From Mytilus edulis (Eukaryota): a stretch of DNA of 47,732 nucleotides. The stretch's first letter is position 1. Each line of letters starts with the position of its first letter. The translations under genes and the position numbers were made by a program. The DNA lies in assembly GCF_963676685.1 (NCBI RefSeq), contig NC_092353.1, positions 20,195,575 through 20,243,306 of the forward strand, read 5' to 3'. The notes under the pieces are model-generated. The model was not told the DNA's origin. It did not search any database and saw only the letters and a list, made by a program, of their open reading frames with translations. This document shows positions 2,481 to 47,732 of the stretch, in pieces.

Positions 2481-2617
2481 ATATCAGGAGATTCCGGAGG
2501 AATTGAATATCAGGAGATTGAGGAAGAAATTGAATATCAGGAGATTGAGGAAGAAATTGAATATCAGAAGATTGAGAAGAAATTGAATATCAGAAGATTG
2601 TGGAAGACATTGAGTAT
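2481..2617. repeat. 27-bp tandem repeat x5 (atatcaggagattgaggaagaaattga) that overlaps the 3' end of the gene
   Basis: Direct reading of the sequence. On the minus strand it encodes the repeated peptide LLNLLIFNFF at the protein C-terminus. Confidence 0.85.
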
Positions 2618-3224
2618 CAAACGACACTTGTACAGGCAAACTTTGTGAAGATGTAGAAGCTGAAGTATTCTTGCAAAGAGTGCAAGAACAACCAGGACCA
2701 CAAACATTGCCTTTCCGCCTGCATAAACATCTGTTGTTTACACAGCCTGTTTTACAATTGCATCCTTTTGTTAGAAAAAGGACTGTATGTTCAACTCTAG
2801 AATAATTTTCTGGAGTATCCCATATTATTGACAAGCCATAATCTGGTTTCATTTCCCATCCATAGTGCATAGGATAAAGAAGTGTGACAGATGAATGTAG
2901 GGCTTTGTCCCACATGTCGGATACCCAGCAACCACGCATCCAGTGAAATTTTAATGCTTCAGCTGTAGGCATCATCTCATCTTCATTGATGATGCGATCC
3001 CAGATTTTTTCTCTGATCTTGTCGAGGAAATCTAAATGAGTTTGAAAGCTGTCTTTTTCATTAGATTTTAGAAGAATGAAAAGGTTTTTTGGTGAAGAAA
3101 TGTTTTCAGGAAATGCTGTTCTGTGTTTCAAGAAGTATAGTGTACCAATGAGTCTGTAAAAGGCCAAAAGACCATTGGGAGTATTTTCAGAAATTCTGTA
3201 CCTGTTACAAAATGGCAGTGTTTC
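2484..3224 (-). CDS. Segment 8 (C-terminal): tesmin/TSO1-type CXC cysteine-rich domain (CNCKTGCVNNRCLCRRKGNVCGPGCSCTLCKN, nt ~2673-2765), followed by a Ser/Gln-rich tract and the 27-bp repeat peptide
   Basis: The Cys spacing C-x-C-x3-C-x4-C-x-C-x6-C-x3-C-x-C-x2-C matches the CXC/CRC consensus. A strong acceptor tttttgacaactttag sits at 3225-3240 on the minus strand, and the frame is open from 3224. Confidence 0.45.
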   Translation of the reverse strand, partial: ETLPFCNRYRISENTPNGLLAFYRLIGTLYFLKHRTAFPENISSPKNLFILLKSNEKDSFQTHLDFLDKIREKIWDRIINEDEMMPTAEALKFHWMRGCWVSDMWDKALHSSVTLLYPMHYGWEMKPDYGLSIIWDTPENYSRVEHTVLFLTKGCNCKTGCVNNRCLCRRKGNVCGPGCSCTLCKNTSASTSSQSLPVQVSFDTQCLPQSSDIQFLLNLLIFNFFLNLLIFNFFLNLLIFNSSGIS

Positions 3225-3727
3225 CTAAAGTTGTCAAAAATTATTCTTTTAGTAAATCCTCTGAAGAAAGAGAGATAGTCACAGCCAGATAGAATGAAAA
3301 GAGTTTGTAAGCATTTATGAAGGTGTTGAATATTTTGTAACAAGAGATCAGTGGCTATCTCACAGCTTAATGCGTTCATGTCCAGGAATTTTTTTTCGAA
3401 TTTGCTGTCCTTTAGTTGAATGAAAATAGTTTTATTTTTAAGAGAATCTGCAGACATAATCAGTGGTAAACCAACAAAACAAACATCAGTATCAGGACTA
3501 TAAATCAAAATATTCAAACAAGGAGATGCGGAGGCATGCAACCATACTCTGCTGTCACTTTCTTCATGATTGCCATTAGCCTTTGAATATTCAAATATTT
3601 CTCCTTCTAGAACACAGATGGCCTTGTCCTTGTTGTTACCTTCAAAACCCCCTGCTGTTACAAAAACAAAATCATGTGTCTTTGAAAGTTCTAAAAATTT
3701 AACTGAAAGATACTGTATAAGCTTTCT
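3128..3727 (-). CDS. Segment 7 (…SPDTDVCFVGLP…ILSGCDYLSFFRGF…)
   Basis: The open frame extends upstream of the listed Met to 3727. It shares a frame with segment 6. A GTAAGA donor at 3878 and an AG at 3727/3726 could define a 153-nt intron that joins them in phase. Confidence 0.35.
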   Translation of the reverse strand, partial: RKLIQYLSVKFLELSKTHDFVFVTAGGFEGNNKDKAICVLEGEIFEYSKANGNHEESDSRVWLHASASPCLNILIYSPDTDVCFVGLPLIMSADSLKNKTIFIQLKDSKFEKKFLDMNALSCEIATDLLLQNIQHLHKCLQTLFILSGCDYLSFFRGFTKRIIFDNFRKHCHFVTGTEFLKILPMVFWPFTDSLVHYTS

Positions 3728-3874
3728 TTAGTTTTGTCTGTTGAAAAGAAACTTTTGCCAGTCAGAAGGAAGAGGGGTTGAATCAGAAATAGATATTGAG
3801 TGAAATTTCAATATGATGCTGGTGACCTAGATCTCTGCGTGCACGTTCCACATTTTTTGGGCTAGGACCATTTC

Positions 3875-4516
3875 TTACAGGATCATAAAAAAGAACATGT
3901 ATTTCAGAAGCATTGTACCGTGTATAGAAATTGAGCACCCATCTGTCGAATAAGAAACTGGCATATTGAAGAAAAAAACATGATAACCAAGTGGACGAGA
4001 ATTGATGATGAACATTCCCTCCAAAATAATACCAGTTGTATTAGAATTTGTAAAGGAAAGGCTGTCTGTGTATGAAGAAGAGTATAGAGATTTGAAGAGG
4101 TTTACAACACCAGATTTTTCACCTTTAATTGGTAGTTCATCAGCAGTACATATAGCTCGAGGCAGTTTATTTAATTGATGCAATTCTTCCACAGGCTTTT
4201 CTAATGTTTTTGAATAAGCCAATTGCTTTCTTAAACAGTGAATAACAGTTTTATTGTCTTGTAGTTCCTTTTTTTGTTGTTGGTTGTTTTTTGTAATGAT
4301 TGTAGAAAATATTTTTAGATTTCTTCTTTTTCTAGGAACTTTTTTATTTTTAAGAACTACACAATTGATAAAACTTTTAAAATCCTCCTCTCCATATTTT
4401 CTGTAGTTGAGCATGTCTGATGAAATGTTTGGTGCACATATTTCTCCGGTAAATATCTGGTGTAATTTTGTATTGGTTTCATTTGTAAATAAATACGATG
4501 TGTCTAGACTTTTCAT
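3875..4516 (-). CDS. Segment 6: contains the basic NLS-like stretch KNKKVPRKRRNLK
   Basis: It is in the same frame as segment 5 and separated from it only by a single in-frame TAA (4604-4606). This suggests a nonsense mutation rather than an indel. Confidence 0.4.
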   Translation of the reverse strand: MKSLDTSYLFTNETNTKLHQIFTGEICAPNISSDMLNYRKYGEEDFKSFINCVVLKNKKVPRKRRNLKIFSTIITKNNQQQKKELQDNKTVIHCLRKQLAYSKTLEKPVEELHQLNKLPRAICTADELPIKGEKSGVVNLFKSLYSSSYTDSLSFTNSNTTGIILEGMFIINSRPLGYHVFFFNMPVSYSTDGCSISIHGTMLLKYMFFFMIL

Positions 4517-4603
4517 GTATTCCTGGATGTTTTTCTCATCATTTTGTCTGATAGAAATTTCCCCAATGGTTGAATTTTGATGCTTAATTTTAAGCTGTTT
4601 TTT

Positions 4604-4969
4604 TTAATTTTGTAAGACTTTTGCTCTGAAAGGTAATGATAAGCATGTAGAAGCTAATGACTGTTTTGTGGTTGAATTCAGGGCTTGTTTGGCTGGCAAA
4701 TTAATTTGCATTTCATGTGCTTCACAGTTTAAATCAGTGCCAGTGATGGACACTGCAAATGCCCCTAATGAGAAGAAATCTAAAATAGGTTGGGGAAAGG
4801 TCAACAAGTCTGCTAAATGATAAGGTACAAGTTTAAGATATAGAGGTCTGTCAAAAGCATGAAAGAGAGGACATATCATTTTCAAGGACGCCATTCTTAG
4901 GTTCCAGTTCCTCGATCTAATGTAAATATACAGAGCAAAGTAGGAAAGGAAATCAGTGTGTATAAAGTT
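4604..4969 (-). CDS. Segment 5: continuation of segment 4 once the MITE and one TSD copy are removed in silico
   Basis: Reading ...ETFRFWD(N) through the TSD and straight into NFIHTDFLSYFALYIYIRSRNWNLRMASLKM... gives no stop and the same frame as ORF 4604..4894. Confidence 0.45.
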   Translation of the reverse strand, partial: NFIHTDFLSYFALYIYIRSRNWNLRMASLKMICPLFHAFDRPLYLKLVPYHLADLLTFPQPILDFFSLGAFAVSITGTDLNCEAHEMQINLPAKQALNSTTKQSLASTCLSLPFRAKVLQN

Positions 4970-4980
4970 GTCCCAAAATC

Positions 4981-5361
4981 AATCTAATTAAAAACCGATC
5001 TCTCATCGCTCCTGTTTCTGATATGTCGCGTGGGAGATCTAACGAAACCGGCTTTGAGGTCACATGTGAGTGAACTAAAAGTTATGAATTTATAAAGATA
5101 TGCAAATAAGTTGACGACCTATTAATAAGCCAATCAAAAAAGTTTATGAATTATTTTGACTGACGATTTCGTCGTAAATAAAATGAGTTACATCCCTTTG
5201 CCTAACGTTAAACTTCCAAGATCGTGTAAGACTCAATTTCATTGGTCGAAAAAGACACACCTACGAGGTCACTCACATGTGACCTCAAAGCGGGTTTCGT
5301 TAGATCTCCCACGCGACATATCAGAAACAGGAGCGATGAGAGATCGGTTTTTAATTAGATT
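4981..5361. mobile_element. Nested foldback MITE (381 bp). It has ~92-bp TIRs (AATCTAATTAAAAACCGATCTCTC...GGTCACATGTGAGTGA) around a ~190-bp core, and is flanked by the 11-bp TSD GTCCCAAAATC (4970-4980 and 5362-5372)
   Basis: The arms 4981-5075 and 5266-5361 are reverse complements with a single mismatch. The direct repeat abuts both ends perfectly. The insertion sits inside the element gene ORF. Confidence 0.8.
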
Positions 5362-6231
5362 GTCCCAAAATCTGAAAGTTTCATCGTTTTCTCTCTTTTT
5401 GGAACGCCAGAGTTTGAAATCAGAATCTGAATTAAGATGTGATGTAAATGTTTGTAATAAGGAAAAAAAGGAAGCCTCATCTAAGAACTCATTTTCATTG
5501 AAGGAAGCATTGATGTTTGAAAAAAGAGATAGGAAATCATTATGACCTTCTTGGTACATCTTAAGTTGATGTCTAGAAAGAGCCTCCCAAGCCTGCAACA
5601 AGAAATTATGAACCAGAGTAAATCTTGTACATTCTGTCAAACATTTTAATCTGGAACCAGCATGAAGAAGGTTAGCTATATCTTTTAGACCTGCCTCATA
5701 ATATATCTTCATTAATACAGGTTGGACATTTTTCAATAAATGCCAGTCACCAGGATAAATCAAAAGCCACTTTAATGCATCTCCATGCTCAAATTTTATT
5801 TTCATTAGTGTGTCATAGGATTTTCCATCGCCAACTAATACTACATGTTCAACATGTTTTCCCACTTGCATTTTTGAATGTAATAAATTTAAAACTTTTA
5901 ACACTGTATCTTTGTCATCAGACTTCTCATCTAGCACTGCAACAAAATATGTTTTGGACTTTTCAGGAGAAACACTTTCATTTGATAGAGAGAGAAAGTA
6001 TTTAATACCATGTTTAGACAACTTGTCATCTATAGTTAATGCTGTTTTGAATTGGTTCATACAGTTGAAAGTCAGCATGTCATTTTGGAATGATTCCCAA
6101 GACTTTTTTTCATCTTCTGACATTATAAAGTTATCAAAAGTTAAGTCAGAGTAAATATTTTGTTTAAGGATTGATGGTTTTCCTATATGGTCAAATGGTT
6201 CATATAAGTTCTTTAATAGTTCTGAAGACAT
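5362..6231 (-). CDS. Segment 4: central conserved-looking core (…VAVLDEKSDDKD…VVLVGDGKSYDTLMKIK…LIYPGDWHLLKN…); possibly a catalytic or nuclease domain, but unclassified
   Basis: In the track the ORF runs 5269..6231, but its last 31 codons are encoded by the inserted MITE arm. The host part ends at the TSD (5362-5372). Confidence 0.45.
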
Positions 6232-6243
6232 GTTTCTCTTACT

Positions 6244-6573
6244 TTACCTGATATGTGATGTTTCTGAATACTTTTTGTAGTGAGAATTGTCAAGATTTGG
6301 AATTGTGTCTAATATATCATTTTTAACTGGTGAACTGTCACAGCTTGAAGAAATTGAATTTGTATTTTCACCTTGTTGGATACATTTTGTAGAAATTTCT
6401 GTGTTTGAAGTTGAAATGACACTTGATGAAGTGGGAATTACATTAGAAGAAGTGAAAAATTCACTTGATGTAAGAATTTCACTGGATAAAGTGAGAATTT
6501 CCCTGGAAGAAGTGGACATTTCACTGGTGGAAGAACTATTAAGCAATGTTGTAAGTGGGTCAGTGGTTTCCAA
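6244..6573 (-). CDS. Segment 3: Ser/Thr-rich low-complexity linker with internal peptide repeats (TSSxEILT)
   Basis: 109-aa ORF immediately upstream of segment 4. The antisense ORF 6287..6643 is the mirror image of the same repeat. Confidence 0.3.
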   Translation of the reverse strand: METTDPLTTLLNSSSTSEMSTSSREILTLSSEILTSSEFFTSSNVIPTSSSVISTSNTEISTKCIQQGENTNSISSSCDSSPVKNDILDTIPNLDNSHYKKYSETSHIR

Positions 6574-6779
6574 TATAGAATTTTCAGATGATGAATTTGT
6601 AACAGAATGTAGTAGAGTTTCAGGTAGGGGCTCTACACTCTGAACAGATGTGCCATGAAACCCAGAATTTGATTTACCAGCTTTAACTGAAGAATGAACT
6701 TGGTTTTTATCAATGTTGTCATAAGATCCAATAGCAAATGATTTGAAAGGAGTTGATTCTGTAGTATTGTTTTGCTCGA

Positions 6780-7298
6780 CTACATCAGATAAAAAAAACG
6801 TTTATGTGTATCTTTTGAGACACAAATACCAAATCTAGATAAAATTGCAAGGAAGTCTGTAGAAGAGTTTGAGAATTTGTCTGCAGTGTCAGTTATAAGC
6901 ATATGTAGTGGTTGGGTGCATGCATTGTTTTGAGTATGAAATATAGAACTTAAAATAAATAACCTTTGTAGAAGTCTAGACCTGAAAAAAATGTTCTCTT
7001 CTGGATGTGGTATGAAATGAGTTTTTATTTGAAGTAAATCGATAGGCATGTCTTTTTCCTCTGCTGCTGTTGCTGTTATAAAATACATGTATACAAAATT
7101 CCACAGGACAGGGTCAATTTTTTTAATTTCTGTCACAAAGTCAAACTTTGCTATGTCTTGTTGAATATTGGTTTGTTTTAAAGAGGTGTAATCAGAAACA
7201 CTCTGTTTTAAGTCTGACACTATGTTTTCAATATTTAAATTTTTATTGTGATCCAATTTGGATTCACATTCAGTGTTTTGGTTACTTTTTTTTACCAT
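6780..7298 (-). CDS. Segment 2 of the element gene
   Basis: 172-aa ORF that is co-linear with its neighbours. The gap to segment 1 is compatible with a short intron or a frameshift. Confidence 0.3.
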   Translation of the reverse strand: MVKKSNQNTECESKLDHNKNLNIENIVSDLKQSVSDYTSLKQTNIQQDIAKFDFVTEIKKIDPVLWNFVYMYFITATAAEEKDMPIDLLQIKTHFIPHPEENIFFRSRLLQRLFILSSIFHTQNNACTQPLHMLITDTADKFSNSSTDFLAILSRFGICVSKDTHKRFFYLM

Positions 7299-7534
7299 TT
7301 GTCAGAATAGCATTATAAGCACACTTTGTCATATCCATACCTGTTTTATAAACATTCTTCCAGATTTTCTAGTTTTTTCTGAAGTATATTCAGACATTGT
7401 GTTGCCAAAACTCAGTTTTAACATGTTAAATAACCAGCGTGTGTTGTGAATAAAGATATTTTTGTTTTTGATACCTAATTGGTCTAAATGTAACAAATAG
7501 GTGGAATAAAAAGTTGATAGCATTACAGGTTTAT

Positions 7535-8128
7535 CTACTTTAAACTCATTGTGAACATGAAACATTTTTTTTTTAAACACAACATATCAGCATAACTTTC
7601 ATTACTAATGTCATGTTCAAACTGACTTAGATTATGAAGTTCATTGTCTATAGAATTTGTCACATGGCCTCTTTGTGATACTTGATTAAATTTGTTATAA
7701 CAATACATACACATGACTGGTTTTGTGGAGTTTTTAGATGTTTCATCAAATTCATCCAAAGAAGTGAGAATATTGAATTGTGTATCTGAAATATAAACCT
7801 GTCTGCCAGTAATAGTTTTATCACATGCAATGCAAATATCCTGAAACCTGCTGTCTTTTTTTATCCATTTACAATAGTGTTGATGACATAATGAAATGCT
7901 GAAATTACTGTCTGTAGATGTATCTAAATCTATGTTGAAAATTTTATAGAATAAATTAGTTTCAAAGGTTTTGATTTTTGTGTTGTGTATGCTGCTATTC
8001 CTGTAAGTACAAAAGGGCAAAAAACATGGTAAATCATATGAAACTGAACTTGTATTTAACTTGCGTTTAACTTTGGCAGGTGGACCATCTTCTGGAATCA
8101 TTTGTTGTTGTTGAAATTTTCTTTTCAT
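7535..8128 (-). CDS. Segment 1 (N-terminal) of the element gene: basic NLS-like PAKVKRKL, then Cys/His clusters (CHQHYC...CIAC, CMYC)
   Basis: 197-aa ORF in the six-frame track, first in a co-linear minus-strand series. The C-x4-C-x12-C-x2-C spacing is typical of a zinc finger. Confidence 0.4.
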   Translation of the reverse strand: MKRKFQQQQMIPEDGPPAKVKRKLNTSSVSYDLPCFLPFCTYRNSSIHNTKIKTFETNLFYKIFNIDLDTSTDSNFSISLCHQHYCKWIKKDSRFQDICIACDKTITGRQVYISDTQFNILTSLDEFDETSKNSTKPVMCMYCYNKFNQVSQRGHVTNSIDNELHNLSQFEHDISNESYADMLCLKKKCFMFTMSLK

Positions 8129-8982
8129 TTTTAATTCGCATCTTTTGCAAATGCAGTCCTTCTCTGTAATGTTGTACAGATTACATACAAATGAACAGAA
8201 CTCTGGTAAGGTTTTCTTTTTTTTGTTGGAGGTGAATGTATGTAGAGGAAGGTAATTTGTTAATACAACAAGGGCCAGGTGCTTTCTCTGGATGTACAGA
8301 CGGGCAGTGTGACGATATACCTGGCATAATTACAGTATTTACTTCCAATTTAAGCCAAAAAAGGAAAAAAATCAATATTATATATTGAGTGATGTTAATC
8401 ATGTGAATTGCTGAGTGATTTGAGGTCAAATTAGCCTACACAAATCGTATATAATTTGTTTGTAGTCTACACAGATAATGGCCTCTTACGCTAGGTGAAA
8501 CGGAAGATGACGTCACTTCGGTGGCGACACTAATAATAAATCATAACGGTAAAATGATGGGTTGAATTTTCGGAAATTTGAAAGATAAGTTTCGGGACTT
8601 TAATATCAAGTTAAAGTTATTAAGTGAAGCTTGGATACGCAAACGTCAAATTAGCAGAAATTACTCCAGATCAGAAGGTTGAAAATGTCTGTTTTGTTAC
8701 ATGGTTAGTTGGGAGTCAATTTTGATTCTTTTTTCAAAGAAAATTGACAATTGAATTATTAAAGAAGCATTATCATATATTTGACAAGAAATACACATTT
8801 TTTTCAGGTTCAAGACAAAACATAAAGTTAGTAAATATTAGTTTTCCTAAATCTTTATTTTCCCGGAATATTTTTCTGAAAGTAAACTGCAGCGCCCTCA
8901 AATTACGTCCCCCTGCTATTGTTGCTGATAGAGCTTGACGACAACGGCCGTATCGAAGGACTTGCTTTCCAACTGTATGAAA

Positions 8983-9027: not shown

Positions 9028-9840
9028 GTTAAACCAATCACAACTTGATAATTTACCTGCGGTGCGATAATGTTGAAGATTGTTGCAAGATGTCACGTTT
9101 AGTGAAACATGCTTGTTAATCAAATGTTACACAGTCCTGAAATGATATATAGTATCAGTTGCATTGTTCCACCTCATCCCTACAATATTTACTGGGGTGT
9201 CGTTGTCTATACAACCTTCTTTAGTGGCTATTTGACACAACTTCGGACTATCTGATTAACAAGATCTCAGATTAAATCCCCCATACTAGTATACAGAAAG
9301 TTGTCGATTTACGGCAACACGATAGTTAGTCTGGAAAACTAGATAAAATGTTGTCGACGTACAAACCGTTGTATTAAATATGTGTAAAAACTATGATTCA
9401 GGTTAAAAAGTTTCAAAATTAAGGCATGTTAAATGAAGGAAGAGTAAGTGGTACCAAATAGAACTACCTTTAAATGGTTTGTCGAGAGTTGACTTGTAGG
9501 GTCGTTCGGATTCCCGAACCAAACAATCTTGTGGCATCTCTGTCATCCTCATGTTTCTCAACTTGTGAAAAATAATGTCCGCAGTTAATTGTTCTTAGGT
9601 AGTCATTCAGGCTTGGTTAATTGGTATATTAAAAATAAAGTCACAAACTGTTCTGATTGGTGTTGTAGCTGAGTCTTTTTTACGATATGGTGGGTTATAC
9701 TAGTGTACTCTGTGGTTTGCACGTACATTCATTTTCATCAACTTTTTCTTGATCGACGATTATATAGATATAAGAAGATGTGGTATGAGTGCCTTTGAAA
9801 CAACTCTTCATCCAAGTCACAGTTTATAAAAGTTAATTAA

Positions 9841-11984: not shown

Positions 11985-12083
11985 AGGTACATGTACCAGG
12001 CTTATAATTTAATATACCATACGCGCGTTTCAGATCCAGATTTGATAAAGAAAGACAAACAAGTACAAAGTTGAAGAGCATTG
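11985..12083 (-). repeat. Inverted copy of the hammerhead-bearing repeat unit, with the ribozyme core deleted
   Basis: On the minus strand it reads caatgctcttcaactttgtacttgtttgtc...tctgaaacgcgcgtatggtatattaaattataagcctggtaca. This aligns to the 30608-30745 unit, but the word agcgtcactgatgagtcttatgtagac is missing. Confidence 0.5.
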
Positions 12084-13114
12084 ATGTTACCCTGTATACC
12101 ACATTGCCTCACATTCTCATTAAGAAAAAATTCACACACCTAATTAAATGGGCATTCAAAAAATCAGAATGTGAATATATATGTTCAAACTCTGTTAGGT
12201 CATTTTTTAGTAGCAATAAAAAAAACTATGTTAATTGGACATGCTTTGATACTATATATGCCCTTGAATTTTTACTAGATAACATTTTTGTTCGCTTTGG
12301 GGATTCCGTATATCGTCAGATTATCGGAATTCCAATGGGGACTAACTGTGCACCACTTATTGCGGACCTGTTTTTGTATTGTTATGAGTTACAATTTATG
12401 ACAATAATAAGCAAACACCCATCGAAACAACATCTGATAAACAAATTTAATAATACTTTTAGATATTTGGATGATATTTTGGCTATCAATAATGACGACT
12501 TCAGTATGTATATTAATGCAATTTATCCTGTTGAACTTACTTTAAATAAAGCTAATACTAACAATGACCACTGCCCTTTTCTCGATCTTTATATCTATAT
12601 CACTAATGGAAAGCTGAATACTAAAATTTCTGATAAAAGGGATGATTTTTCATTTCCTATCGTTAATTATCCGTTTTTAGATGGTGACGTTCCCTTGTCA
12701 CCATCTTACGGTGTTTATATATCTCAACTTGTACGATTCGCTCGTGTATGTAATAATGTTTGAGATTTTAACGAGAGAAATTTATGTATTACTGAAAAAT
12801 TATTACACCAGGGTTTTCGATATCACAAACTAGTCAAAACATTTACTAAATTTTATCATCGGTATAAAGACATCATTCGTAAATATAGCTCAACATGCAG
12901 ACTTCTAATACGTTCAGGTATTTCACATCCAATTTTTTATGGAAATATTCTTTATAAAGCACAACGGTGTCAGTATTCACCTCAGAAACTTACAAAACCT
13001 TTGAATAGACTTCTTAAGAAGGGATATAATTACGATACTGTTGTCAAGTCATTAAAGATTGCATATTTTGGCGTTAATATTGAGTCACTGATAAGGTCTT
13101 TGCATCGGAACTAA
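12071..13114 (+). pseudogene. 5'-truncated reverse transcriptase fragment: RT motif B (GIPMGTNCAPLIADLFL) and motif C (YLDDIL), then a thumb-like C-terminal region. One in-frame TGA at 12761-12763
   Basis: ORF 12071..12763 continues in the same frame after the single TGA down to the TAA at 13112-13114, giving ~347 codons. The N-terminus, including motif A, is absent. The ORF starts exactly at the junction word gttgaagagcattg. Confidence 0.7.
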
Positions 13115-19794: not shown

Positions 19795-19985
19795 GACAAA
19801 AATCCAGTATCAAAGATGTTACAAGGCAACACCAAAGATCTTGGCTGCTACCTCACCCTAGAAGAGAGACATTATAAGTTGACACCTATAATCATGGCTG
19901 CTACCTCACTCCACGAGTGACATTACTGTGCAACACCTAACATCTTGGCTGCTACCTCACCCCATGAGTGACCTAATTCCAGCAT
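19795..19985. repeat. ~60-bp tandem repeat x3 (catcttggctgctacctcac(c/t)cc..gagtgaca)
   Basis: Direct reading of the sequence. It overlaps the 3' end of the minus-strand ORF 19923..20228. Confidence 0.6.
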
Positions 19986-21002
19986 ACTTGATGTCAATTT
20001 ATGCTCTTCCTCTTTCTGCTGATAGAAATTGACAGTTTTTATCATTCGACTATGCTTAGGAAAATGTTCATCATCAACTTGTTGCCTACCACCCTCTGTA
20101 CTTTCTGACAGCCATCTTGTCAGCTCTTTTTGCCAAAAGTTATTGCCTTTAACATGACTGGGAACCCAGTCTGGAGACTCCAATTGTATAACAACCAGCA
20201 AGGCAATACAGGTTGCCAGTAAAGTCATAATCTCATCCTGTACTTTTAATGCTGAAATAGAATATTGTACTTCGCTTGAAATTAAATAGTTACAATAAGT
20301 GTCAGCCCTCCAAGATGCTTAATTTCCATTTATTCTATGTTTTGTATACTGTTCTTTGTCTGTTTTTCCTTTTAATCATGGCATTGTAATTTTATTTTTC
20401 AACTTTTGAGTTTAAATGTTTCTTTGGTATATTTTGCCTCTCTTCTTCAACCTGCTGCATGATTTTTGTTTTGGTGACAGTTGTGCTTTAATAATTCTAA
20501 GCAAGTCCATGACAAATACTTATAGTCAAGATTTTTGATTAGTTAGCCATTTAATCATATTCATTGGCATTTTATAGCTGCAAACTTTAATCAAAGTTTA
20601 AAAATCAACTCCTGATTCTGCTAAATGGAGATAACATGAAACATATATAATATTAGGGTACAAACAAAAAATTGAACCTTTTCCTTAAGTTAATGTAAAA
20701 ACTGAATTTTCATGGAGTTTAAATTTCGTTTATTTGTGATGATACTGATCAGAAAATATCGATGAAATTAAAACTCCCATGAAAATTTAACCTTCATAAA
20801 ATATCACTTCCATTTAATGGAAACCATGAAATTAAATCCCCATGAAATCTTACATAGAGAAAAAACCACGAAAATTTGATCTCATGAAAATTAATGTTTC
20901 TAAAGTAAATGAAACTTGATATTCAAAACATGCCAATATTGAACTAAAACCTACTTAACAGGTTTTATCTGTTTGAAATAATGTTCCCAAGTTAATACTT
21001 AA

Positions 21003-32318: not shown

Positions 32319-33740
32319 TGTCATCGCAACTCCTCTCAAACCACACAACAGAATTTCACGAAACCTTTTCAGATATTAAGGACATACTCTGTAGTTGTGC
32401 ATATCGACGGGAAATTGCGATTCAATTTTTTTTCTAGGAGTTACGCCCCTTTGAACTTATTTACTTTAATGTACTACTGCAACAGTTTGTCATCGCAACT
32501 CCTCTGAAACTACACAACAGAATTTCACGAAACCTTTTCAGATAATAAGGACATATTCTGTAGTTGTGCATATCGACGGGAAATTGCGATTCAATTTTTT
32601 TTCTAGGAGTTACGCCCCTTTGAACTTATTTACTTTAATGTACTACTGCAACAGTTTGTCATCGCAACTCCTCTCAAACCACACAACAGAATTTCACGAA
32701 ACCTTTTCAGATAATAAGGACATATTCTGTAGTTGTGCATATCGATGGGAAATTGCGATTCAATTTTTTTTCTAGGAGTTACGCCCCTTTGAACTTATTT
32801 ACTTTAATGTACTACTGCAACAGTTTGTCATCGCAACTCCTCTCAAACCACAAAACAGAATTTCACGAAATCTTTTCAGATAATAAGGACATACTCTGTA
32901 GTTGTGCATATCGACGGGAAATTGCGATTCAATTTTTTTTTCTAGGAGTTACGCCCCTTTGAACTTATTTACTTTAATGTACTACTGCAACAGTTTGTCA
33001 TCGCAACTCCTCTCAAACCACACAACAGAATTTCACGAAACCTTTTCAGATAATAAGGACATACTCTGTAGTTGTGCATATCGACGGGAAATTGCGATTC
33101 AATTTATTTTCTAGGAGTTACGTCCTTTTGAACTTATTATACCCCACGCAACGAAGTTCCGGAGGGTATAATTTTTTGACCCGTCCGTCCGTCCGTCCGT
33201 CAGTCCGTCCGTCCGTCCGTCCGTCCGTCAGTCCGTCCGTCCGTCCGTCAGTCCGTCCGTCAGTCCTGTTTCTTGTCATCGCAACTCCTCTCAAACCACA
33301 CAACAGAATTTCACGAAACCTTTTTAGATGAAAAGGACATACTATGTAGTTGTGCATATCGACAGGAAATTACGATTCAATTTTTTTTATAAGAGTTACG
33401 CCCCTTTGAACTTATTTGCTTAATGTACTACTGCAACAGTTTGTCATCGCAACTCCTCTGAAACTACACAACAGAATTTCACGAAACCTTTTTAGATAAT
33501 AAGGACATACTATGTAGATGTGCATTTCGACAGGAAATTACGATTCAATTTTTTTTCTAGGAGTTACCCCCCTTTGAACTTATTTACTTTATTGTACTAC
33601 TGCAACAGTTTGTCATCGCAACTCCTCTGAAACTACACAACAGAATTTCATGTAATTTTGTAGATAATAAGGACATACTATGTTGATGTGCATATTGACA
33701 GGAAATTATTATTCAATATTTTTTCTTATACAATTTTTTT
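32319..33740 (+). repeat. 169-bp satellite array of ~8 units, interrupted at 33139-33275 by a second head
   Basis: The tcatcgcaac word recurs at 32321, 32490, 32659, 32828, 32998, 33276, 33444 and 33612, at periods of 168-170. The ORFs 32271..33331 are periodic artefacts. Confidence 0.85.
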
Positions 33741-37244: not shown

Positions 37245-37344
37245 CTTAAGTGATGGTTCTTTGGTCTGCGCTAACATTTCACGAGTCAAGTCAACAGATA
37301 ATCTTCTTGCGTCACTTAAATAACCTTCATCAAAGGACCTGTTC
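37245..37344 (-). CDS. 100-nt exon (…Q NRSFDEGYLSDARRLSVDLTREMLAQTKEPSLK) spliced in phase to the exon at 37911-38871
   Basis: The acceptor cttgcag is at 37345-37351 on the minus strand and the donor GTATGT at 37244. CA from the upstream exon plus G completes the CAG codon, and the frame stays open. Confidence 0.4.
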
Positions 37345-37910: not shown

Positions 37911-38871
37911 TGCAGTACAGAGGCTGGGGAACCCCATGATTTGGACTGAAAGCCTAAGGACCCAGACATCCGTCTGGCAGGAGCTCTAGGCCTGGGTGCT
38001 CCTGGTATCTCCTCAGCCTGTAGATGTGGTTGAGTTGGTGTTATTTTGGATCTCTGTTGCTCTGGTATTGTTAGAAAGGAGGATGGTGTTTTATTACTGG
38101 TATCTGTTTTAACAGCTGCTGGAGAGGGTGTTGGCACTGGTCTCCTTGATATCTGAGGCACCTGTGAGAGTGAAGGTGGTGTCACCCCTCCTCTAAACCT
38201 TGTATTGCCAGCTAATTGGGGTGAAGCAGTGTCCCAGTGACTTCCACTTTCTGATGAACTTGTTGTTTGTTGTCTTGGAGTTGCTGAGCCACCCATACAT
38301 ATTTTACTATCAGGTGATCCCATACAGCCAGACTTTTTTTGGTTTTCATTATACTTTGATAATGAAATTGGTTTATGCTTTTCAGGACTTGCATCAGAAA
38401 CCATTATTGCAGGAGCAGGCGACTGAATACTTTGGGTTGACGATGCTTGCATTGCCTGAGGTGATGCTCGTTGCATACTTTGGGCAAAAAAATCTTGGCG
38501 TCTCTGAGGTGATGTGGGTTGCATCATTTTTGGTAACGATGCTTGCTGTATCTGAGGAGATGCTGGTTGCATCATTGCAGGTGCCAATGCTTGCACTTGC
38601 TGAGGTGATGTTAGTTGCATACTCTGGGGATGCATTACTGGACTTCTCTGACTTACTGGTGCTGTATACCCTGTGACTAAATCTGTCTTCCTGCTAGAGG
38701 AGACTGAGGATGACTGTTTGCATTTCCTGTAGCTAGGTGTAGACTGTGGCATGTGAGCTATGCCTCCATGTACTATTGTACGGGCTGGAGCCATGTCTGT
38801 ATCACCTGTGTGTATCATATCTGATTCCAGTTGAGTTGGTTTTGATACAAAATCCTCTTTTACTATGTTTC
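37911..38871 (-). CDS. Large Gln/Ser/Pro-rich exon (~320 codons; repeated MQPxSPQ-type motifs) of an unidentified host gene
   Basis: ORF 37907..38818 in the track. The frame stays open upstream to the acceptor ttttttttag at 38872-38881 on the minus strand. The 3' end is CTGCA|GTAAGT, a donor at 37910. Composition is GC-richer than the flanks. Confidence 0.5.
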
Positions 38872-39989: not shown

Positions 39990-41235
39990 TTATGGTCCAA
40001 TATCCAAAATCTAAATACATGGTAAGATTCAGCATATCAAAGAACCCCAAGGATTCAATTTTTGTTGATATCAAACAAAGTTTAATTTTGGACCACGATT
40101 TGGACAAACTTGAAAAACTGGCCCCATAAGCAAAAATCTTAATACAAGTTTAGATTCAGCAAATCAAAAACTCCAAGGATTCAATTTTTGTTGAAATCAA
40201 ACAAAGTTTAATTTTGGACCTTGATTTGGACCAACTTGAAAACTTGGCCCATATTCAAAAATCTTAGTACATGTTTAGATTCACCATATTAAAGAACCCC
40301 AAGAATTCAATTTTTGTTGAAATCAAACAAAGTTTAATTTTGGACCCTGATTTGGACCAACTTGAAAACTGGGCCCATAATCAAAAATCTTAGTACATGT
40401 TTAGATTCAGCATATCAAAGAACCCCAAGAATTCAAATTTTGTTGAAATCAAACAAAGTTTAATTTTGGACCCTGATTTGGACCAACTTGAAAACTGGGC
40501 CCATAATCAAAAATCTAAGTACATGTCTAGATTCAGCATATCAAAGAACCCCAAGAATTCAATTTTTGTTAAAATCAAACTAAGTTTAATTTTGGACCCT
40601 TTGGACCTTAATGTAGACCAATTTGAAAACGGGACCAAAAATTAAGAATCTACATACACAGTTAGATTAGGGATATCAAAGAACCCCAATTATTCAATTT
40701 TTGATGAAATAAAACGAAGTTTCTGACCCAGAATGAATGTGTTCTTAAACTTAAAAACTTGAAAACTTGGCCCATAATCAAAATTAGATTCACCATATTA
40801 AAGAACCCCAAGAATTCAATTTTTGTTGAAATCAAACAAAGTTTAATTTTGGACCCTGATTTGGACCAACTTGAAAACTGGGCCCATAATCAAAAATCTT
40901 AGTACATGTTTAGATTCAGCATATCAAAGAACCCCAAGAATTCAAATTTTGTTGAAATTAAACAAAGTTTAATTTTGGACCCTGATTTGGACCAACTTGA
41001 AAACTAGGCCCATAATCAAAAATCTAAGTACATGTTTAGATTCAGCATATCAAAGAACCCCAAGAATTCAATTTTTGTTAAAATCAAACTAAGTTTAATT
41101 TTGGATCCATTGGACCTTAATGTAGACCAATTTGAAAACGGGACCAAAAATTAAGAATCTACATACACAGTTAGATTAGGGATATCAAAGAACCCCAATT
41201 ATTCAATTTTTGATGAAATAAAACAAAGTTTAATT
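39990..41235. repeat. ~125-bp satellite array of ~10 units (…ttagattcagcatatcaaagaaccccaagaattcaatttttgttgaaatcaaacaaagtttaattttggaccctgatttggaccaacttgaaaactgggcccataatcaaaaatct…). It has an internal ~480-bp higher-order duplication: 40260-40735 is repeated at 40760-41230
   Basis: Periods of 125-127 were measured between successive cagcatatcaaag words. This is the same family as the arrays at 23471-23990 and 25357-25810. The ORF 40397..40645 is an artefact. Confidence 0.85.
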
Positions 41236-45056: not shown

Positions 45057-46020
45057 TTTGATTTTTTTTTAGCAACTTCATGAAAACTGCTGAAAGAACT
45101 TTTGAGTTATTGTTCAATAAGTGGAAAATTCGCACTTTTTAATGAAAAAAACCCATAACTCAGAAATGTAATATCTAAATATGAAAATCCATAAGGGAGC
45201 TCACGTCAATAGACATAAACAATAGACTACTTTTGAGTTCATCCGTCACCAGAAAAAAACTTGTCAATTAGGTGCGCCTTTGCGACGTCGTTTACCAGAT
45301 AGAGGGGATCGCCTGTATCCCTGCACTATTTATGTTCATCAAGCGTCTTAGTGATCGTCATTGTGGAGGATAAACTAGAAACAATTTTTGTTTTGTAAGT
45401 ACTTAATCACAACTCCCTAATGACAAAGTACAGCAGTGCCGATTGTCAATTATGAGAATTTAGTTTGCCGAATAATTTGTGCAGTATAGTATTATAATTT
45501 TCCAACCACTCGCTCAACATTAGAATGGAAATGATGAAGCCCCTAAACGCACAAATGATGTTCACTAAAACCAGAGTTTTTGACGGAACTGCATCAAACT
45601 CGAAAGTTGTCTATTCACCCAAGTTTCATGAAAACAGCTCAAACCATTTTTGAGTTAATGTCTGAAAAACTAGAAAATCCCCTTTTTTTGATGAAATAAA
45701 ACCCATAACTCAAAATGTAAAATCCAAAATTTATAAAAATATAAAGGGAACTAACATTAATAGATATAAACAATTCATTAAAGTTTCATGAAAACTTCTC
45801 CAAGCATTTTAAGGTAATTGTCCGAAAAAAAACTAGAAAAATCCCCCTTTTTTGATGAAATTGTAGCCCCATAATTTTGAAACATAAAATCCAAAATTTA
45901 TGAAAATCATAAGGGAGCTCACATCAATAGATATAAACAATTCACCAAAGTTTCATGCAAATTGGTGAAAGAGTTTTTGAGTTAATGTCCGACATGTTGA
46001 CGACGGATGAACAACAGGTT
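45057..46020. repeat. ~185-bp repeat family: one unit at 45057-45240, and tandem units at 45615-46020 (…tttcatgaaaacagctcaaaccatttttgagttaatgtc(c/t)gaaaaactagaaaatcccc…cataactcaaaatgtaaaatccaaaatttataaaaat…)
   Basis: Direct reading of the sequence. Inverted 11-bp words gttcatccgtc (45237) and gacggatgaac (46003) bracket the block. Confidence 0.6.
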
Positions 46021-46087
46021 TCCTATATAATATGTCCTGTAAAGGGGCCTATAAAAAACTTTGAAAATATTCTATGTTAATCTTACC

Positions 46088-46212
46088 AGCATCAAATAAG
46101 CCTAAACCTAAGTCATCATCCTCACTTTCACTTTCCTCATAATACTCAAGTTTAGGAGTTGGCTTTGCTTTTGAACTTTCTTTAAATGGCATCATGTCAA
46201 ATGGAGCTGGTT
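46088..46212 (-). CDS. Exon encoding the same kind of acidic tail (…DMMPFKESSKAKPTPKLEYYEESESEDDDLGLGLFDAG), paralogue B
   Basis: The acceptor tcttattgcag is at 46213-46223 on the minus strand and the donor G|GTAAG at 46087. It has an open 41-codon frame, with phase 2 at its start and phase 1 at its end. It carries the same SE(S/D)DD(M/L)G(F/L)xLF(D/E) motif as paralogue A. Confidence 0.35.
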
Positions 46213-46537
46213 CTGCAATAAGATTTTTAAATGCATTTTGTTGTCATGCATCATGCCCCCAATGTAATACTTCAGAAAATATATATCAGTAAACAGAAGT
46301 AAAAGTCTGAAATATCCCCAAAAAATCCTCAAATGTTTAAATTACTGTCAATCTATTATGAAGTCTATTTGTGATGAGAATTTAAAAAAATCAATACTTT
46401 TCCAATTTTTCATTTTTTTTTTACTGAATTCACCTAAACCTGTAACCAGATGTTGTTACTCCAAAAGTGTATCTAAATTTTGAAACTGTCAGTAGATTGT
46501 TCTCATTTTAGCAATTTCCAGACTTTTATACTGCATT

Positions 46538-46720
46538 GGGCAGCAGAAATGGGAGGTCTTCACCTTCAGATTTGCCTTTTTCCCCCCAGATTCCATTTTG
46601 GGCAGCAGAAATGGGAGGTCTTCACCTTCAGATTTGCCTTTTTCCCCCCAGATTCCATTTTGGGAGGTCTTCACCTTCAGATTTGCCTTTTTCCCCCAAG
46701 ATTCCATTTTTGGGCTGAAA
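46538..46720. repeat. 72-bp tandem repeat x2.6 (gggcagcagaaatgggaggtcttcaccttcagatttgcctttttccccccagattccattttg) in the intron between the two P-like exons
   Basis: Direct reading of the sequence. The ORFs 46480..46731 are artefacts. Confidence 0.8.
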
Positions 46721-46790
46721 CTGCAACTTAAATCTGAGAAACATAATATGCCTTAAGCCTTAAGTAGAGTCAACATGAATTAATTTCGAA

Positions 46791-46898
46791 ATCAATATCA
46801 AATAGATAAATCAATATCAAATAGATAAATCAATATCAAATAGATAAATCAATATCAAATAGATAAATCAATATCAAATAGATAAATCAATATCAATA
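46791..46898. repeat. 19-bp microsatellite x5.5 (atcaatatcaaatagataa)
   Basis: Direct reading of the sequence. Confidence 0.85.
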
Positions 46899-46906
46899 AG
46901 ACTTAC

Positions 46907-47017
46907 CACCTTCAAATAAATTAAAACCCATGTCTGTATCACTTTCACTTTCTTCCCTTTCCAGAATAGATGTATTTCTTGCGTTATATGCATATTTTTC
47001 CAGCAGTACCGGTTTCT
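46907..47017 (-). CDS. Exon encoding a ribosomal-stalk-P-protein-like acidic tail (…LLEKYAYNARNTSILEREESESDTDMGFNLFEGG), paralogue A
   Basis: The acceptor ctctttacag is at 47018-47027 on the minus strand and the donor G|GTAAG at 46906. ORF 46893..47093 in the track. Phase 1 at both ends. Confidence 0.35.
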
Positions 47018-47732
47018 CTGTAAAGAGTGACAACAATATTTGTTGAACAAACAGATGAATGCCGGGACCAATGGACAGACAAGGTGAATGCAATATAGCT
47101 CTATTCCCAGAGTAATAATTTCATATTTGATACTATATTCAATTTAAAGTTTTATTGCCATATAAACTTTACAGTTTGTGACATAATGTAACAACAACAA
47201 AAACAAATAAAGACAATAACTAAGTAACTCAATATATATACACAAATTCAGGTAAATATTAAAGGGTCCCCTGTCCTCAGTTCCATTGACTTTTTTATAA
47301 AGGATCCTAGTTTATTCACTTGTGTTGGTGTTGATGGGTTAAGTATATATATAACTTTGTCATTGTCAGTGAGATTAGCAAATGAATTACTTTCTCTGTT
47401 AATGCAATCAAAATATGTTAATCTAATATTTGAATTATGAGAACATATTATAAATAGTAAATTGATCCAGGCAACACATGACATGAGTAATAAGTGACAT
47501 GTGAATTTTAGTAAAATGATGCAATATACAGTATTATAAGTGACTAATATATACTAGTAATCAGCTTATAACAATTGTAACTTTAATCAATAGGTTATTT
47601 CCATTGAAGTAAACAAGGTGTCAGTTACTTCCCTTTGTTGTTATGGTAGAGGGGAAATTTCATTACTGGTTACTTGTTTATTTGACTACAATTATAACAT
47701 ATCTACTGGGTTTGTCTTTACTTTTGGTCCTC

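What the first reader, a model, noticed from the sequence alone, without database searches (positions are those of the whole stretch)
46078..47027. Two paralogous minus-strand exons encoding an acidic tail like that of ribosomal stalk P proteins (EESESDxDMGFxLF[DE]), each followed by a conserved G|GTAAG donor
ESESDTDMGFNLFEGG at 46907-47017 and ESESEDDDLGLGLFDAG at 46088-46212 both resemble the universally conserved C-terminal tail of eukaryotic P0/P1/P2 stalk proteins (EESDDDMGFGLFD-COOH), which is the docking site for translation GTPases and for ribosome-inactivating toxins. In bona fide P proteins the motif is the extreme C-terminus. Here both copies run into a strong, identical-context donor, with read-through stops after 4 and 15 codons. 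Their reading phases differ (A is phase 1 at both ends; B starts in phase 2), so A cannot splice directly to B in frame. Possible explanations are (i) two tandem P1/P2-like gene copies whose last exon ends with a short read-through tail, (ii) mutually exclusive or alternative terminal exons, or (iii) a non-ribosomal gene carrying P-tail mimics. The intervening intron contains a 72-bp and a 19-bp tandem repeat.
Basis: partly seen in the sequence, partly recalled or inferred. Interest (0 to 1): 0.6.

Follow-up and report, generated by a model that had tools for sequence, protein, structure and literature searches.

The report
Stalk-tail mimics inside a PARP4 gene
Two small coding exons of an invertebrate (probably molluscan) vault-PARP (PARP4-like) gene each encode a copy of the acidic tail that ribosomes use to dock translation factors, and the same mimic sits at the same place in PARP4 genes of scallop, pearl oyster, sea spider, amphioxus and catfish, which points to a docking motif I could not find described, in an enzyme whose job is still unclear.

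Summary
Two minus-strand exons, A (47017-46907) and B (46212-46087), encode EESESDTDMGFNLFE and EESESEDDDLGLGLFD, each ending in TG|GTAAG. The motif occurs nowhere else in the six frames and never in 300 random windows.

Both exons are phase 1-1 and join in frame to each other and to eight downstream exons. Seven of those eight junctions are confirmed by a spliced transcript of a related species.

The 743-aa product ends in the MVP-interacting domain of PARP4, the vault PARP (human PARP4 1574-1636, E 1.6e-5). So these are not P1/P2 gene copies, pseudogenes or terminal exons. They are internal exons of the disordered linker of a PARP4-like gene.

The same mimic lies in the linker upstream of the MVP-interacting domain (after the VWA region where the model includes it) in PARP4-like proteins of Argopecten, Pinctada, Branchiostoma, Pycnogonum and Clarias. 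It is usually followed closely by a phase-1 donor. It is degenerate in a primate and a unionid.

No paper in the searchable library links PARP4 to the stalk tail. The likely role is a tethered bait for proteins that normally bind the stalk tail; this is inferred, not shown. There is no transcript evidence for exons A and B themselves.

The parts
46907..47017 (-). Exon A, 111 nt, phase 1-1. Encodes (x)KPVLLEKYAYNARNTSILEREESESDTDMGFNLFEG(G), the first P-stalk-tail mimic.
   Evidence: Acceptor cactctttacAG, donor TG|GTAAGT. There is no cross-species or transcript support yet.
46087..46212 (-). Exon B, 126 nt, phase 1-1. Encodes (E)PAPFDMMPFKESSKAKPTPKLEYYEESESEDDDLGLGLFDA(G), the second P-stalk-tail mimic.
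   Evidence: It is conserved in related-species genomic contig L001: 114/126 nt identical, no indel, AG/GT kept, motif DDDLGFGLFD. Flanking introns are ~80% identical with many indels.
46789..46896 (.). Perfect 19-bp x5.7 tandem repeat in the A-B intron, starting 10 nt after the exon A donor.
   Evidence: It is a single copy in L001.
46536..46710 (.).
37911..38871 (-). Exon C, 961 nt, phase 1 to 2. This is the large Ser/Pro/Gln-rich disordered linker exon.
   Evidence: Its 3' half is matched by spliced transcript L002. The acceptor and the codons upstream of the first ATG are conserved in L008, whereas the intron is not.
37245..37344 (-). Exon D, 100 nt.
   Evidence: Spliced transcript L002, 95% nt identity.
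32041..32157 (-). Exon E, 117 nt, acidic.
   Evidence: L002, 94% nt identity.
27471..27518 (-). Exon F, 48 nt. It is shorter than in the related transcript.
26905..27121 (-). Exon G, 217 nt.
   Evidence: L002, 85% nt identity.
22019..22143 (-). Exon H, 125 nt. Start of the MVP-interacting domain region.
21478..21577 (-). Exon I, 100 nt (DGSWCLTERLCNLLGI...). Core of the MVP-interacting domain.
19923..20251 (-). Exon J, the last coding exon including the stop codon. End of the MVP-interacting domain. The 3' UTR continues to about 19628.

Best explanation
What it is. Exons A and B are two consecutive, in-frame, phase 1-1 internal coding exons of a PARP4-like (vault PARP) gene. The gene runs on the minus strand from beyond 47732 to about 19923. 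The two exons lie in the disordered linker just upstream of the large Ser/Pro/Gln-rich linker exon and the C-terminal MVP-interacting domain. That domain anchors PARP4 inside the vault cage.

Each exon encodes a short linear motif that copies the C-terminal tail of ribosomal stalk proteins P0/P1/P2: an acidic Ser/Asp/Glu run followed by [ML]-G-[FL]-x-L-F-[DE]. The motif is an old, conserved feature of PARP4 linkers in bilaterians. This species carries two copies, probably through partial duplication of the motif-encoding end of the exon.

How it most likely works (inferred, not shown). The motif sits on a long flexible leash. It acts as a bait for proteins whose hydrophobic groove normally grasps the stalk tail. 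These are the translational GTPases eEF2 and eEF1A, GCN2, or ribosome-inactivating toxins. Binding would bring them next to a vault-tethered ADP-ribosyltransferase or into the vault lumen.

Approximate confidence by step:
- Internal exons of a PARP4-like gene: 0.9 for B, 0.7 for A.
- Conserved functional linear motif: 0.8.
- Binds stalk-tail partners: 0.35.
For: Gene identity:
- The 10-exon, 743-aa model is in frame with canonical AG/GT at every junction.
- Exons C to J match a spliced transcript of a related species piece by piece at 85-95% nt identity.
- The C-terminus matches human PARP4 residues 1574-1636 (PDB 9bw6, 9bw7, 11jf; E 1.6e-5).
- The orthologous transcript product carries a precomputed PF26156 PARP4_MVP-ID hit.
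- The closest named relatives are PARP4-like or MVP-ID proteins of molluscs.
- Verified exons show dN/dS of 0.21-0.64.

Exons A and B:
- A, B and C are phase compatible.
- The conserved phase-1 acceptor of exon C requires an upstream phase-1 donor.
- Exon B keeps its ORF, length and splice sites in L001 and is more conserved than its introns.

Motif:
- Pfam Ribosomal_60s is the only hit.
- Chance expectation is about 0.
- The same mimic occurs internally in Argopecten PARP4-like (all 8 isoforms), Pinctada, Branchiostoma parp4, Pycnogonum PARP4, Clarias PARP4 and UPI0005AE4C7E.
- Five of six of these peptides tested, plus the L001 copy of exon B, have the Ribosomal_60s C-terminal end as their best Pfam match.
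- A phase-1 donor follows within 0-7 codons of LF in the window (twice), Pinctada, Pycnogonum and amphioxus.
- In catfish the motif opens the big linker exon, the same order as B then C here.

Functional plausibility:
- The residues critical for ricin binding to P2 (F111, L113, F114 and the D115 side chain) are largely kept. The DDDM stretch is dispensable, and D115 bonds through its side chain (PMC5122897).
- The PARP4 linker extends into the vault lumen, and PARP4 depletion alters the vault interactome (PMC12280208).
Against: - No transcript covers exons A or B in this or a related species. L002 starts inside exon C.
- Exon A was not found in the 230 nt of L001 upstream of the single 19-bp repeat unit.
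- Codon-level selection on exon B is inconclusive: 10.5 nonsynonymous against 1.5 synonymous changes.
- Each motif alone is below the Pfam gathering score.
- The local Pfam copy gave no MVP-ID hit.
- The BRCT, PARP, VIT and VWA parts lie outside the window, so orthology to full PARP4 is unproven.
- The motif is internal, whereas every known functional stalk tail is C-terminal.
- B has Leu for F111 and A has Asn for G112.
- The motif is degenerate in a primate and a unionid, and absent from the chiton and gastropod models.
- No binding data exist.
Confidence: 0.55

Rival explanations
1. The motif is a conserved acidic-hydrophobic linear motif of PARP4 whose likeness to the stalk tail is convergent. 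It would bind something unrelated to stalk-tail partners, for example the acidic-lined vault interior, another vault component, or a generic acidic/hydrophobic motif reader. It could also act within PARP4 itself.
For: - Only ~15-25 residues are similar, and each copy is below the Pfam gathering score.
- The catfish, primate and unionid versions do not hit Ribosomal_60s at all.
- The motif is internal rather than C-terminal.
- Acidic runs followed by bulky hydrophobic residues are a common motif grammar (established knowledge).
Against: - The specific G-[FL]-x-L-F-[DE] core, including both glycines in B and in most orthologues, is shared with the stalk tail.
- Ribosomal_60s is the top or only hit among 24,736 Pfam families for exon A, exon B and six of the nine further motif peptides tested.
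- The SESE/acidic preface is also shared.
Confidence: 0.27
2. Integrated decoy. The P-tail mimic is a bait for ribosome-inactivating toxins or other pathogen factors that target the stalk. It diverts them to, or reports them through, a vault-tethered ADP-ribosyltransferase.
For: - RIPs dock on exactly this tail (PMC3280276, PMC5122897).
- The primate PARP4 linker evolves under positive selection and has been proposed to meet viral factors (PMC10450202).
- Other PARP4-like linkers carry fragments of ubiquitin, 14-3-3, Hsp70 and actin.
- Exon B has an excess of nonsynonymous changes.
Against: - The other host-protein fragments are each seen in one or two gene models, some from non-curated annotations, and may be artefacts.
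- There is no functional data.
- The motif core is conserved rather than diversifying.
Confidence: 0.12
3. A and B are alternative or mutually exclusive cassette exons, or terminal exons that end in a short read-through tail.
For: Both exons are symmetric (phase 1-1), so skipping either keeps the frame. Read-through stops follow after 4 and 12 codons. The Pycnogonum gene model actually ends by such a read-through.
Against: - The premise that A and B cannot join in frame is false.
- The donors are strong, and the B donor is conserved.
- Exon C needs a phase-1 upstream donor.
- All eight Argopecten isoforms keep the motif internally.
- The Pycnogonum end looks like a truncated annotation at a GTACGT donor.
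Confidence: 0.04
4. These are tandem P1/P2-like genes, or decayed or exonised fragments of RPLP retrocopies with no function.
For: The Pfam Ribosomal_60s hit. Ribosomal protein genes spawn many retrocopies (established knowledge). The motif exon may originally have come from an RPLP last coding exon (inference).
Against: - No N-terminal P-protein domain is present; the match is limited to profile positions 63-88.
- Splice sites are canonical and the exons continue in frame into a PARP4-like gene.
- The motif is kept at the same gene position in molluscs, an arthropod, amphioxus and a fish. This is incompatible with neutral debris.
Confidence: 0.02

Closest known systems
C-terminal tail of eukaryotic ribosomal stalk proteins P0/P1/P2 (Pfam PF00428; consensus EESEESDDDMGFGLFD-COOH)
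   Same: Both have an acidic Ser/Asp/Glu run followed by [ML]-G-[FL]-x-L-F-[DE]. Both sit on a long flexible, low-complexity tether. Both come in more than one copy (two here, five on the stalk). The residues critical for ricin binding are mostly kept.
   Different: Here the motif is internal, encoded by its own phase 1-1 exons, and followed by more than 660 further residues. There is no N-terminal dimerisation domain. The host protein is a PARP4-like vault component, not a ribosomal protein. B has L for F111 and A has N for G112.
Human/vertebrate PARP4 (vPARP; PDB 9bw6, 9bw7, 11jf)
   Same: Both have a C-terminal MVP-interacting domain (E 1.6e-5) preceded by a long Pro/Ser-rich disordered linker. 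Catfish PARP4 has a recognisable motif, DSESEQSDFMGYCMFD, ~70 residues after FVAIEERD.
   Different: In the primate sequence the corresponding site is degenerate (FEDVEEDGLDVLPAF), and no such motif is annotated in the literature read. The window gene has two strong copies. Its catalytic, VIT and VWA parts are outside the window. The 2025 structure paper treats PARP4 as a vertebrate vault component, whereas invertebrate PARP4-like proteins clearly exist.
Bivalve PARP4-like proteins (Argopecten irradians XP_069141939 and isoforms; Pinctada imbricata KAK3096544.1)
   Same: The P-tail mimic lies in the linker upstream of the MVP-ID. The Pinctada motif exon ends LFD G|GTAAGT in phase 1, as exons A and B do.
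   Different: They have a single copy. The Argopecten exon is phase 0 to 2 and continues 17 codons beyond the motif. The Pinctada model also contains an Hsp70 substrate-binding-domain fragment. MVP-ID identity to the window protein is only ~30%.
Integrated decoy domains of plant NLR immune receptors (concept only)
   Same: A copy of a pathogen-targeted host element is embedded in a protein suspected of an immune role.
   Different: There is no homology, no evidence of pathogen binding, and a different protein class. This is an analogy for the speculative reading only.

Membership tests
Ribosomal P1/P2 (Pfam PF00428 Ribosomal_60s) | N-terminal helical dimerisation domain (about profile positions 1-60) | tested here: not met
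   Matches cover only profile positions 63-88 and 72-88. Nothing P-like is found in the 700 nt upstream within the window.
Ribosomal P1/P2 (Pfam PF00428 Ribosomal_60s) | Conserved acidic/hydrophobic tail (E/S/D run followed by MGFGLFD) | tested here: met
   EESESDTDMGFNLFE and EESESEDDDLGLGLFD align to the P2, P1 and P0 tails.
Ribosomal P1/P2 (Pfam PF00428 Ribosomal_60s) | Tail is the extreme C-terminus, followed by a stop codon | tested here: not met
   Both copies end in a phase-1 GTAAG donor and continue in frame for more than 660 residues. The motif is internal in the orthologues.
Ribosomal P1/P2 (Pfam PF00428 Ribosomal_60s) | Score above the Pfam gathering threshold (28.1 bits) | tested here: inconclusive
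   31.7 bits for the isolated A+B peptide (two stretches summed). 24.4 bits within the 743-aa model. 17.5 and 18.5 bits for each exon alone.
PARP4 / vault PARP | C-terminal MVP-interacting domain (MVP-ID/MINT; PF26156) | tested here: met
   phmmer against PDB finds human PARP4 1574-1636, E 1.6e-5. There is a precomputed PF26156 hit on the orthologous transcript product P0003. The local Pfam copy returned no hit.
PARP4 / vault PARP | Long disordered Pro/Ser-rich linker between the ITIH-like region and the MVP-ID | tested here: met
   Exon C encodes a 320-aa Ser/Pro/Gln-rich stretch with no Pfam domain. The layout is the same in catfish, scallop and amphioxus PARP4.
PARP4 / vault PARP | VIT and VWA (ITIH-like) region | not testable with these tools
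   It would lie upstream of 47732, outside the window. Exact-ORF look-ups for this species found nothing.
PARP4 / vault PARP | BRCT and PARP catalytic domains | not testable with these tools
   They are outside the window. They are present in relatives P0007, P0017 and P0030.
PARP4 / vault PARP | Physical association with MVP/vault particles | not testable with these tools
   This needs biochemistry.
PARP4-linker P-tail-like motif (group proposed here) | Acidic run followed by [ML][GAE][FLMY]x[LM]F[DEGNQ], in the linker upstream of the MVP-ID (after the VWA region and before the large linker exon where the model allows this to be seen), often closing an exon with a phase-1 donor | tested here: met
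   Window exons A and B. Argopecten, Pinctada, Branchiostoma, Pycnogonum, Clarias and UPI0005AE4C7E.

The most novel reading that the evidence does not exclude
The disordered linker of PARP4 is a leash carrying modular copies of host elements that pathogens attack. These are the ribosomal P-stalk tail (conserved across bilaterians) and, in particular lineages, a ubiquitin-like domain ending RLRGG, the 14-3-3 C-terminal helix, the Hsp70 substrate-binding domain and the actin N-terminus. On this reading, the vault-tethered ADP-ribosyltransferase works as an integrated-decoy sensor or trap for toxins and effectors such as ribosome-inactivating proteins. That would give the vault and PARP4 a concrete innate-immune mechanism.
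Probability: 0.12. Interest if true: 0.9.

Novelty: new variant of a known kind. Interest (0 to 1): 0.68.

Why it matters
PARP4 and the vault particle were discovered decades ago, yet their molecular function is still open (PMC12280208). A conserved copy of the ribosomal stalk tail, sitting on the flexible linker that hangs into the vault lumen, yields a specific and cheap experiment: test whether PARP4 linker peptides bind eEF2, eEF1A, GCN2 or ribosome-inactivating toxins. It would also be the first case known to me of a non-ribosomal protein displaying the stalk tail. That matters for how translation GTPases, GCN2 and toxins such as ricin and Shiga toxin are distributed in the cell. For annotation, it explains why gene models can end falsely at such exons, as the Pycnogonum model does. 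It also shows that PARP4-like genes with an MVP-interacting domain exist well outside vertebrates.

Tried and rejected
1. I first guessed a terminal exon at 27121-26882. This was wrong: the related transcript uses a donor after ...ASTG.
2. I considered P1/P2 gene copies or processed pseudogenes and rejected them (see the rivals).
3. From memory I considered MDC1-type SDTD repeats, clathrin-box or gamma-ear motifs, LIR, FFAT and acidic activation domains. None fits both copies as well as the stalk tail. None was formally tested.
4. Pfam scans of the downstream exons and of P0003 gave no MVP-ID hit in the local library. A PDB sequence search was used instead.
5. The search for homologous proteins with the A+B peptide found only one genomic fragment. 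The third search returned only short PARP4 fragments.
6. Exact-ORF look-ups to extend the window upstream or identify the species found nothing.
7. A small motif HMM searched locally missed known positives in long acidic proteins. Regular expressions were used instead.
8. Pfam on the long ORFs at 2484-8329 and 12071-12763 gave nothing usable.
9. The first literature search was too broad and yielded nothing relevant.
Full report
**1. The observation**

The window is AT-rich (~33% GC) eukaryotic DNA with many transposon-like ORFs.

On the minus strand there are two short open stretches flanked by canonical splice signals.
- Exon A is 47017-46907: 111 nt, acceptor ctttacAG|, donor TG|GTAAGT.
- Exon B is 46212-46087: 126 nt, acceptor ttattgcAG|, donor TG|GTAAGA.

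They encode KPVLLEKYAYNARNTSILEREESESDTDMGFNLFEG and PAPFDMMPFKESSKAKPTPKLEYYEESESEDDDLGLGLFDA.

The likeness to the stalk tail is real.
- Pfam Ribosomal_60s (PF00428) is the only family hit. It scores 31.7 bits (E 2.3e-7) for A+B, and 17.5 and 18.5 bits for each exon alone.
- The match always falls on the last 17-26 positions of the 88-position profile.
- The best PDB matches are the tails of P2, P1 and P0.
- A motif pattern hits only these two places in all six frames, and never in 300 first-order Markov random windows.
- At DNA level A and B resemble each other only over the last ~55 nt and the donor.

Three details of the finding are wrong.
- Both exons are phase 1-1, so A joins B in frame, giving ...FEG-E-PAPFD.
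- The read-through stop after B comes after 12 codons, not 15.
- The second intronic repeat has a period of 62 or 49 bp, not 72. The 19-bp x5.7 repeat is confirmed.

**2. What gene this is**

Following reading phases downstream gave a chain of phase-compatible exons.

A word-indexed protein search with the assembled product returned P0003. This is the 493-aa product of a 1770-nt spliced Logan contig (L002) from a related species, and it carries a precomputed PF26156 PARP4_MVP-ID hit.

L002 maps onto the window in eight blocks at 85-95% nt identity, and the blocks end at AG/GT sites. This corrected my first guess of a terminal exon at 27121-26882.

The resulting model has ten exons:
- A 47017-46907
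- B 46212-46087
- C 38871-37911
- D 37344-37245
- E 32157-32041
- F 27518-27471
- G 27121-26905
- H 22143-22019
- I 21577-21478
- J 20251-19923

It is in frame throughout, encodes 743 aa and ends at a stop codon.

The last ~180 residues match the MVP-interacting domain of human PARP4 (residues 1574-1636; PDB 9bw6, 9bw7, 11jf; E 1.6e-5). The local Pfam copy did not report PF26156 for either protein, so the domain call rests.

An exhaustive HMMER search with exons D-J found 27 relatives. The named ones are PARP4-like or MVP-ID proteins, mostly molluscan.

Verified exons C-J show dN/dS of 0.21-0.64 against L002. The value is lowest in the MVP-ID and highest in the linker.

The BRCT, PARP, VIT and VWA parts, if present, lie beyond 47732. 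Attempts to extend the sequence failed.

**3. Are A and B really part of that gene?**

No transcript covers them, because L002 begins inside exon C. The case is indirect.
- A, B and C all share intron phase 1.
- In a related species (L008) conservation starts sharply at the polypyrimidine tract and AG of exon C. It covers 17 codons upstream of the first ATG. Exon C is therefore an internal exon that needs an upstream phase-1 donor.
- In another related genomic contig (L001) exon B keeps its length, ORF, AG and GTAAGA. It is 114/126 identical with no indel. The flanking introns are ~80% identical in aligned columns and full of indels. There the motif reads DDDLGFGLFD, even closer to the stalk tail.
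- Homologous motif exons exist in annotated PARP4-like genes elsewhere (section 4).

Two weaknesses remain.
- Exon A has no counterpart in the 230 nt of L001 upstream of the single 19-bp unit. That stretch looks like unrelated repeat DNA.
- The substitutions in exon B are 10.5 nonsynonymous against 1.5 synonymous. This fits a fast-evolving linker but gives no codon-level proof of coding.

**4. The motif is a conserved feature of PARP4 linkers**

Among the relatives retrieved, internal P-tail-like motifs occur in:

| Source | Motif |
|---|---|
| Argopecten irradians PARP4-like (all eight RefSeq isoforms) | EEESDEEEEMGFGLFEDD |
| Pinctada imbricata KAK3096544.1 | DEEDDDMAFSLFDD |
| Branchiostoma belcheri parp4 | EESESDEDMEFGLFDQ |
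| Pycnogonum litorale PARP4 | CDDDDMGMGLF |
| UPI0005AE4C7E | DDDMGFGLFDG |
| Clarias magur PARP4, which has the full PARP/VIT/VWA/MVP-ID set | DSESEQSDFMGYCMFD |

In every case the motif lies upstream of the MVP-ID. Where the model includes the conserved FVAVEKR element that ends the ITIH-like region (Argopecten, Branchiostoma, Clarias), the motif follows it and precedes the Pro/Ser-rich region.

Tested as isolated peptides, five of these six, plus the L001 copy of exon B, have the C-terminal end of Ribosomal_60s as their best Pfam match.

The gene structure is shared.
- A phase-1 donor follows within 0-7 codons of LF in window A and B, in Pinctada (LFD G|GTAAGT), in Pycnogonum (LF G|GTACGT) and in amphioxus, where the exon is also phase 1-1.
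- In catfish the motif opens the large linker exon, the same order as B then C here.
- Argopecten differs: its exon is phase 0 to 2.

The site is degenerate in a primate (FEDVEEDGLDVLPAF) and a unionid mussel (ESMGFGDGDE). It was not seen in the chiton or gastropod models.

The simplest reading is an ancestral bilaterian PARP4 motif, duplicated in this lineage. Its ultimate origin from an RPLP last coding exon is plausible but untested.

**5. How it probably works**

What is shown: the motif, its position in the gene and its conservation.

What is known from the literature:
- The stalk tail docks translational GTPases, GCN2 and ribosome-inactivating toxins (PMC6421407, PMC3280276).
- For ricin A chain the key contacts are F111, L113, F114 and the side chain of D115. 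G110 and G112 permit the required backbone angles, and DDDM is dispensable (PMC5122897).
- Exon A keeps F, L and F with E in place of D. Exon B keeps both glycines, L, F and D, with L in place of F111.
- The D115 contact described in that paper is made by the side chain, so I see no obvious bar to binding from an internal position. This is my inference, not a tested result.
- The PARP4 chain leaves its MVP-bound domain and extends into the vault lumen through long disordered regions. PARP4 depletion changes the vault interactome (PMC12280208).

The inference: the motif is a tethered bait that brings stalk-tail-binding proteins to a vault-bound ADP-ribosyltransferase or into the cage. I give this about 0.35. 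The main rival (0.27) is a convergent motif with an unrelated partner.

**6. Comparison with what is known, and novelty**

This is not a P-protein. The N-terminal domain and the C-terminal position were both tested and not met. It is a PARP4-like gene by its MVP-ID and linker, while its catalytic half could not be tested.

No paper in the searchable library combines PARP4 with P-stalk or with GFGLF. The PARP4 structure and domain-annotation papers read describe the linker only as disordered and, in primates, as positively selected.

I therefore rate it as a new variant of a known kind: a known protein family with an unrecognised, conserved stalk-tail mimic.

**7. Seen in passing**

Other PARP4-like models carry fragments of 14-3-3, Hsp70, a ubiquitin-like domain ending RLRGG, and actin in the same linker. 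Together with the known positive selection, this suggests an integrated-decoy reading. I rate it at about 0.12, because each fragment is seen in only one or two models, some of them uncurated.

**Verdict**

Options (i) and (ii) and the phase argument are wrong. Interest is 0.68.

Noticed in passing
Related proteins P0028 (aa 284-318; L005 about 9066-9419), P0005 (aa 403-544; L004 about 9324-9560 onward), P0043, P0027 and P0040: PARP4-like gene models of other animals carry in-frame fragments of abundant host proteins in the same linker. These are the 14-3-3 C-terminal helix (amphioxus), the Hsp70 substrate-binding domain (Pinctada, split by introns), a ubiquitin-like domain ending RLRGG (Bulinus; also UPI0005AE4C7E) and the actin N-terminus (a JGI sequence). 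They could be real modules, exonised retrocopies or annotation chimeras.
   Followed up: partly
L006 13543-13776 (Pycnogonum litorale, protein P0054): The deposited 'PARP4 (predicted)' model ends ...DDDDMGMGLFGT* by reading through a GTACGT phase-1 donor directly after the P-tail-like motif. The model is probably truncated there.
   Followed up: partly
window 2484-8329 (-): A string of long ORFs (up to 324 aa stop-free) lies downstream of the PARP4-like gene. They have no Pfam match except a weak Tesmin/TSO1 CXC hit (E 6e-4). This looks like an unidentified mobile element.
   Followed up: partly
window 12071-12763 (+): A 230-aa ORF resembles a reverse-transcriptase fragment by eye (FLDL..., YLDDIL...) but had no Pfam hit at E<=0.01.
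   Followed up: partly
window 23480-23908, 25343-25738 and 40397-40645 (+); 45613-45992: A repeated ORF/repeat family (...ISKNPKISIFVKIRLSLILDPLD...) occurs three times inside introns of the gene. There is also a 167-bp x2.3 tandem repeat in the B-C intron.
   Followed up: no
window 46087-46212 compared with L001 951-1076: Exon B differs from its orthologue by 10.5 nonsynonymous and 1.5 synonymous changes (pN 0.106, pS 0.064). The verified exons C-J have dN/dS of 0.21-0.64. The numbers are too small to call positive selection, but the pattern recalls the fast-evolving primate PARP4 linker.
   Followed up: partly
L003 21846-23007 (Argopecten irradians PARP4-like): A tandem duplication of about 780 bp carries two small exons (SMEPSFMKSQWHI and RVSEGESIPSSLLVTEK) just upstream of the scallop motif exon. 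This may underlie some of the eight annotated isoforms.
   Followed up: no
window 27471-27518 compared with L002 690-772: Exon F is 48 nt here. The related transcript has 81 nt at this position, with an extra basic stretch (SRKKKWKKKAVFD). No counterpart of that stretch was located in the window.
   Followed up: no
window 33118-33357: A (TDGR)n / (PSVR)n-coding microsatellite-like repeat, with neighbouring ~165-bp repeats at 32271-33114, lies in an intron.
   Followed up: no
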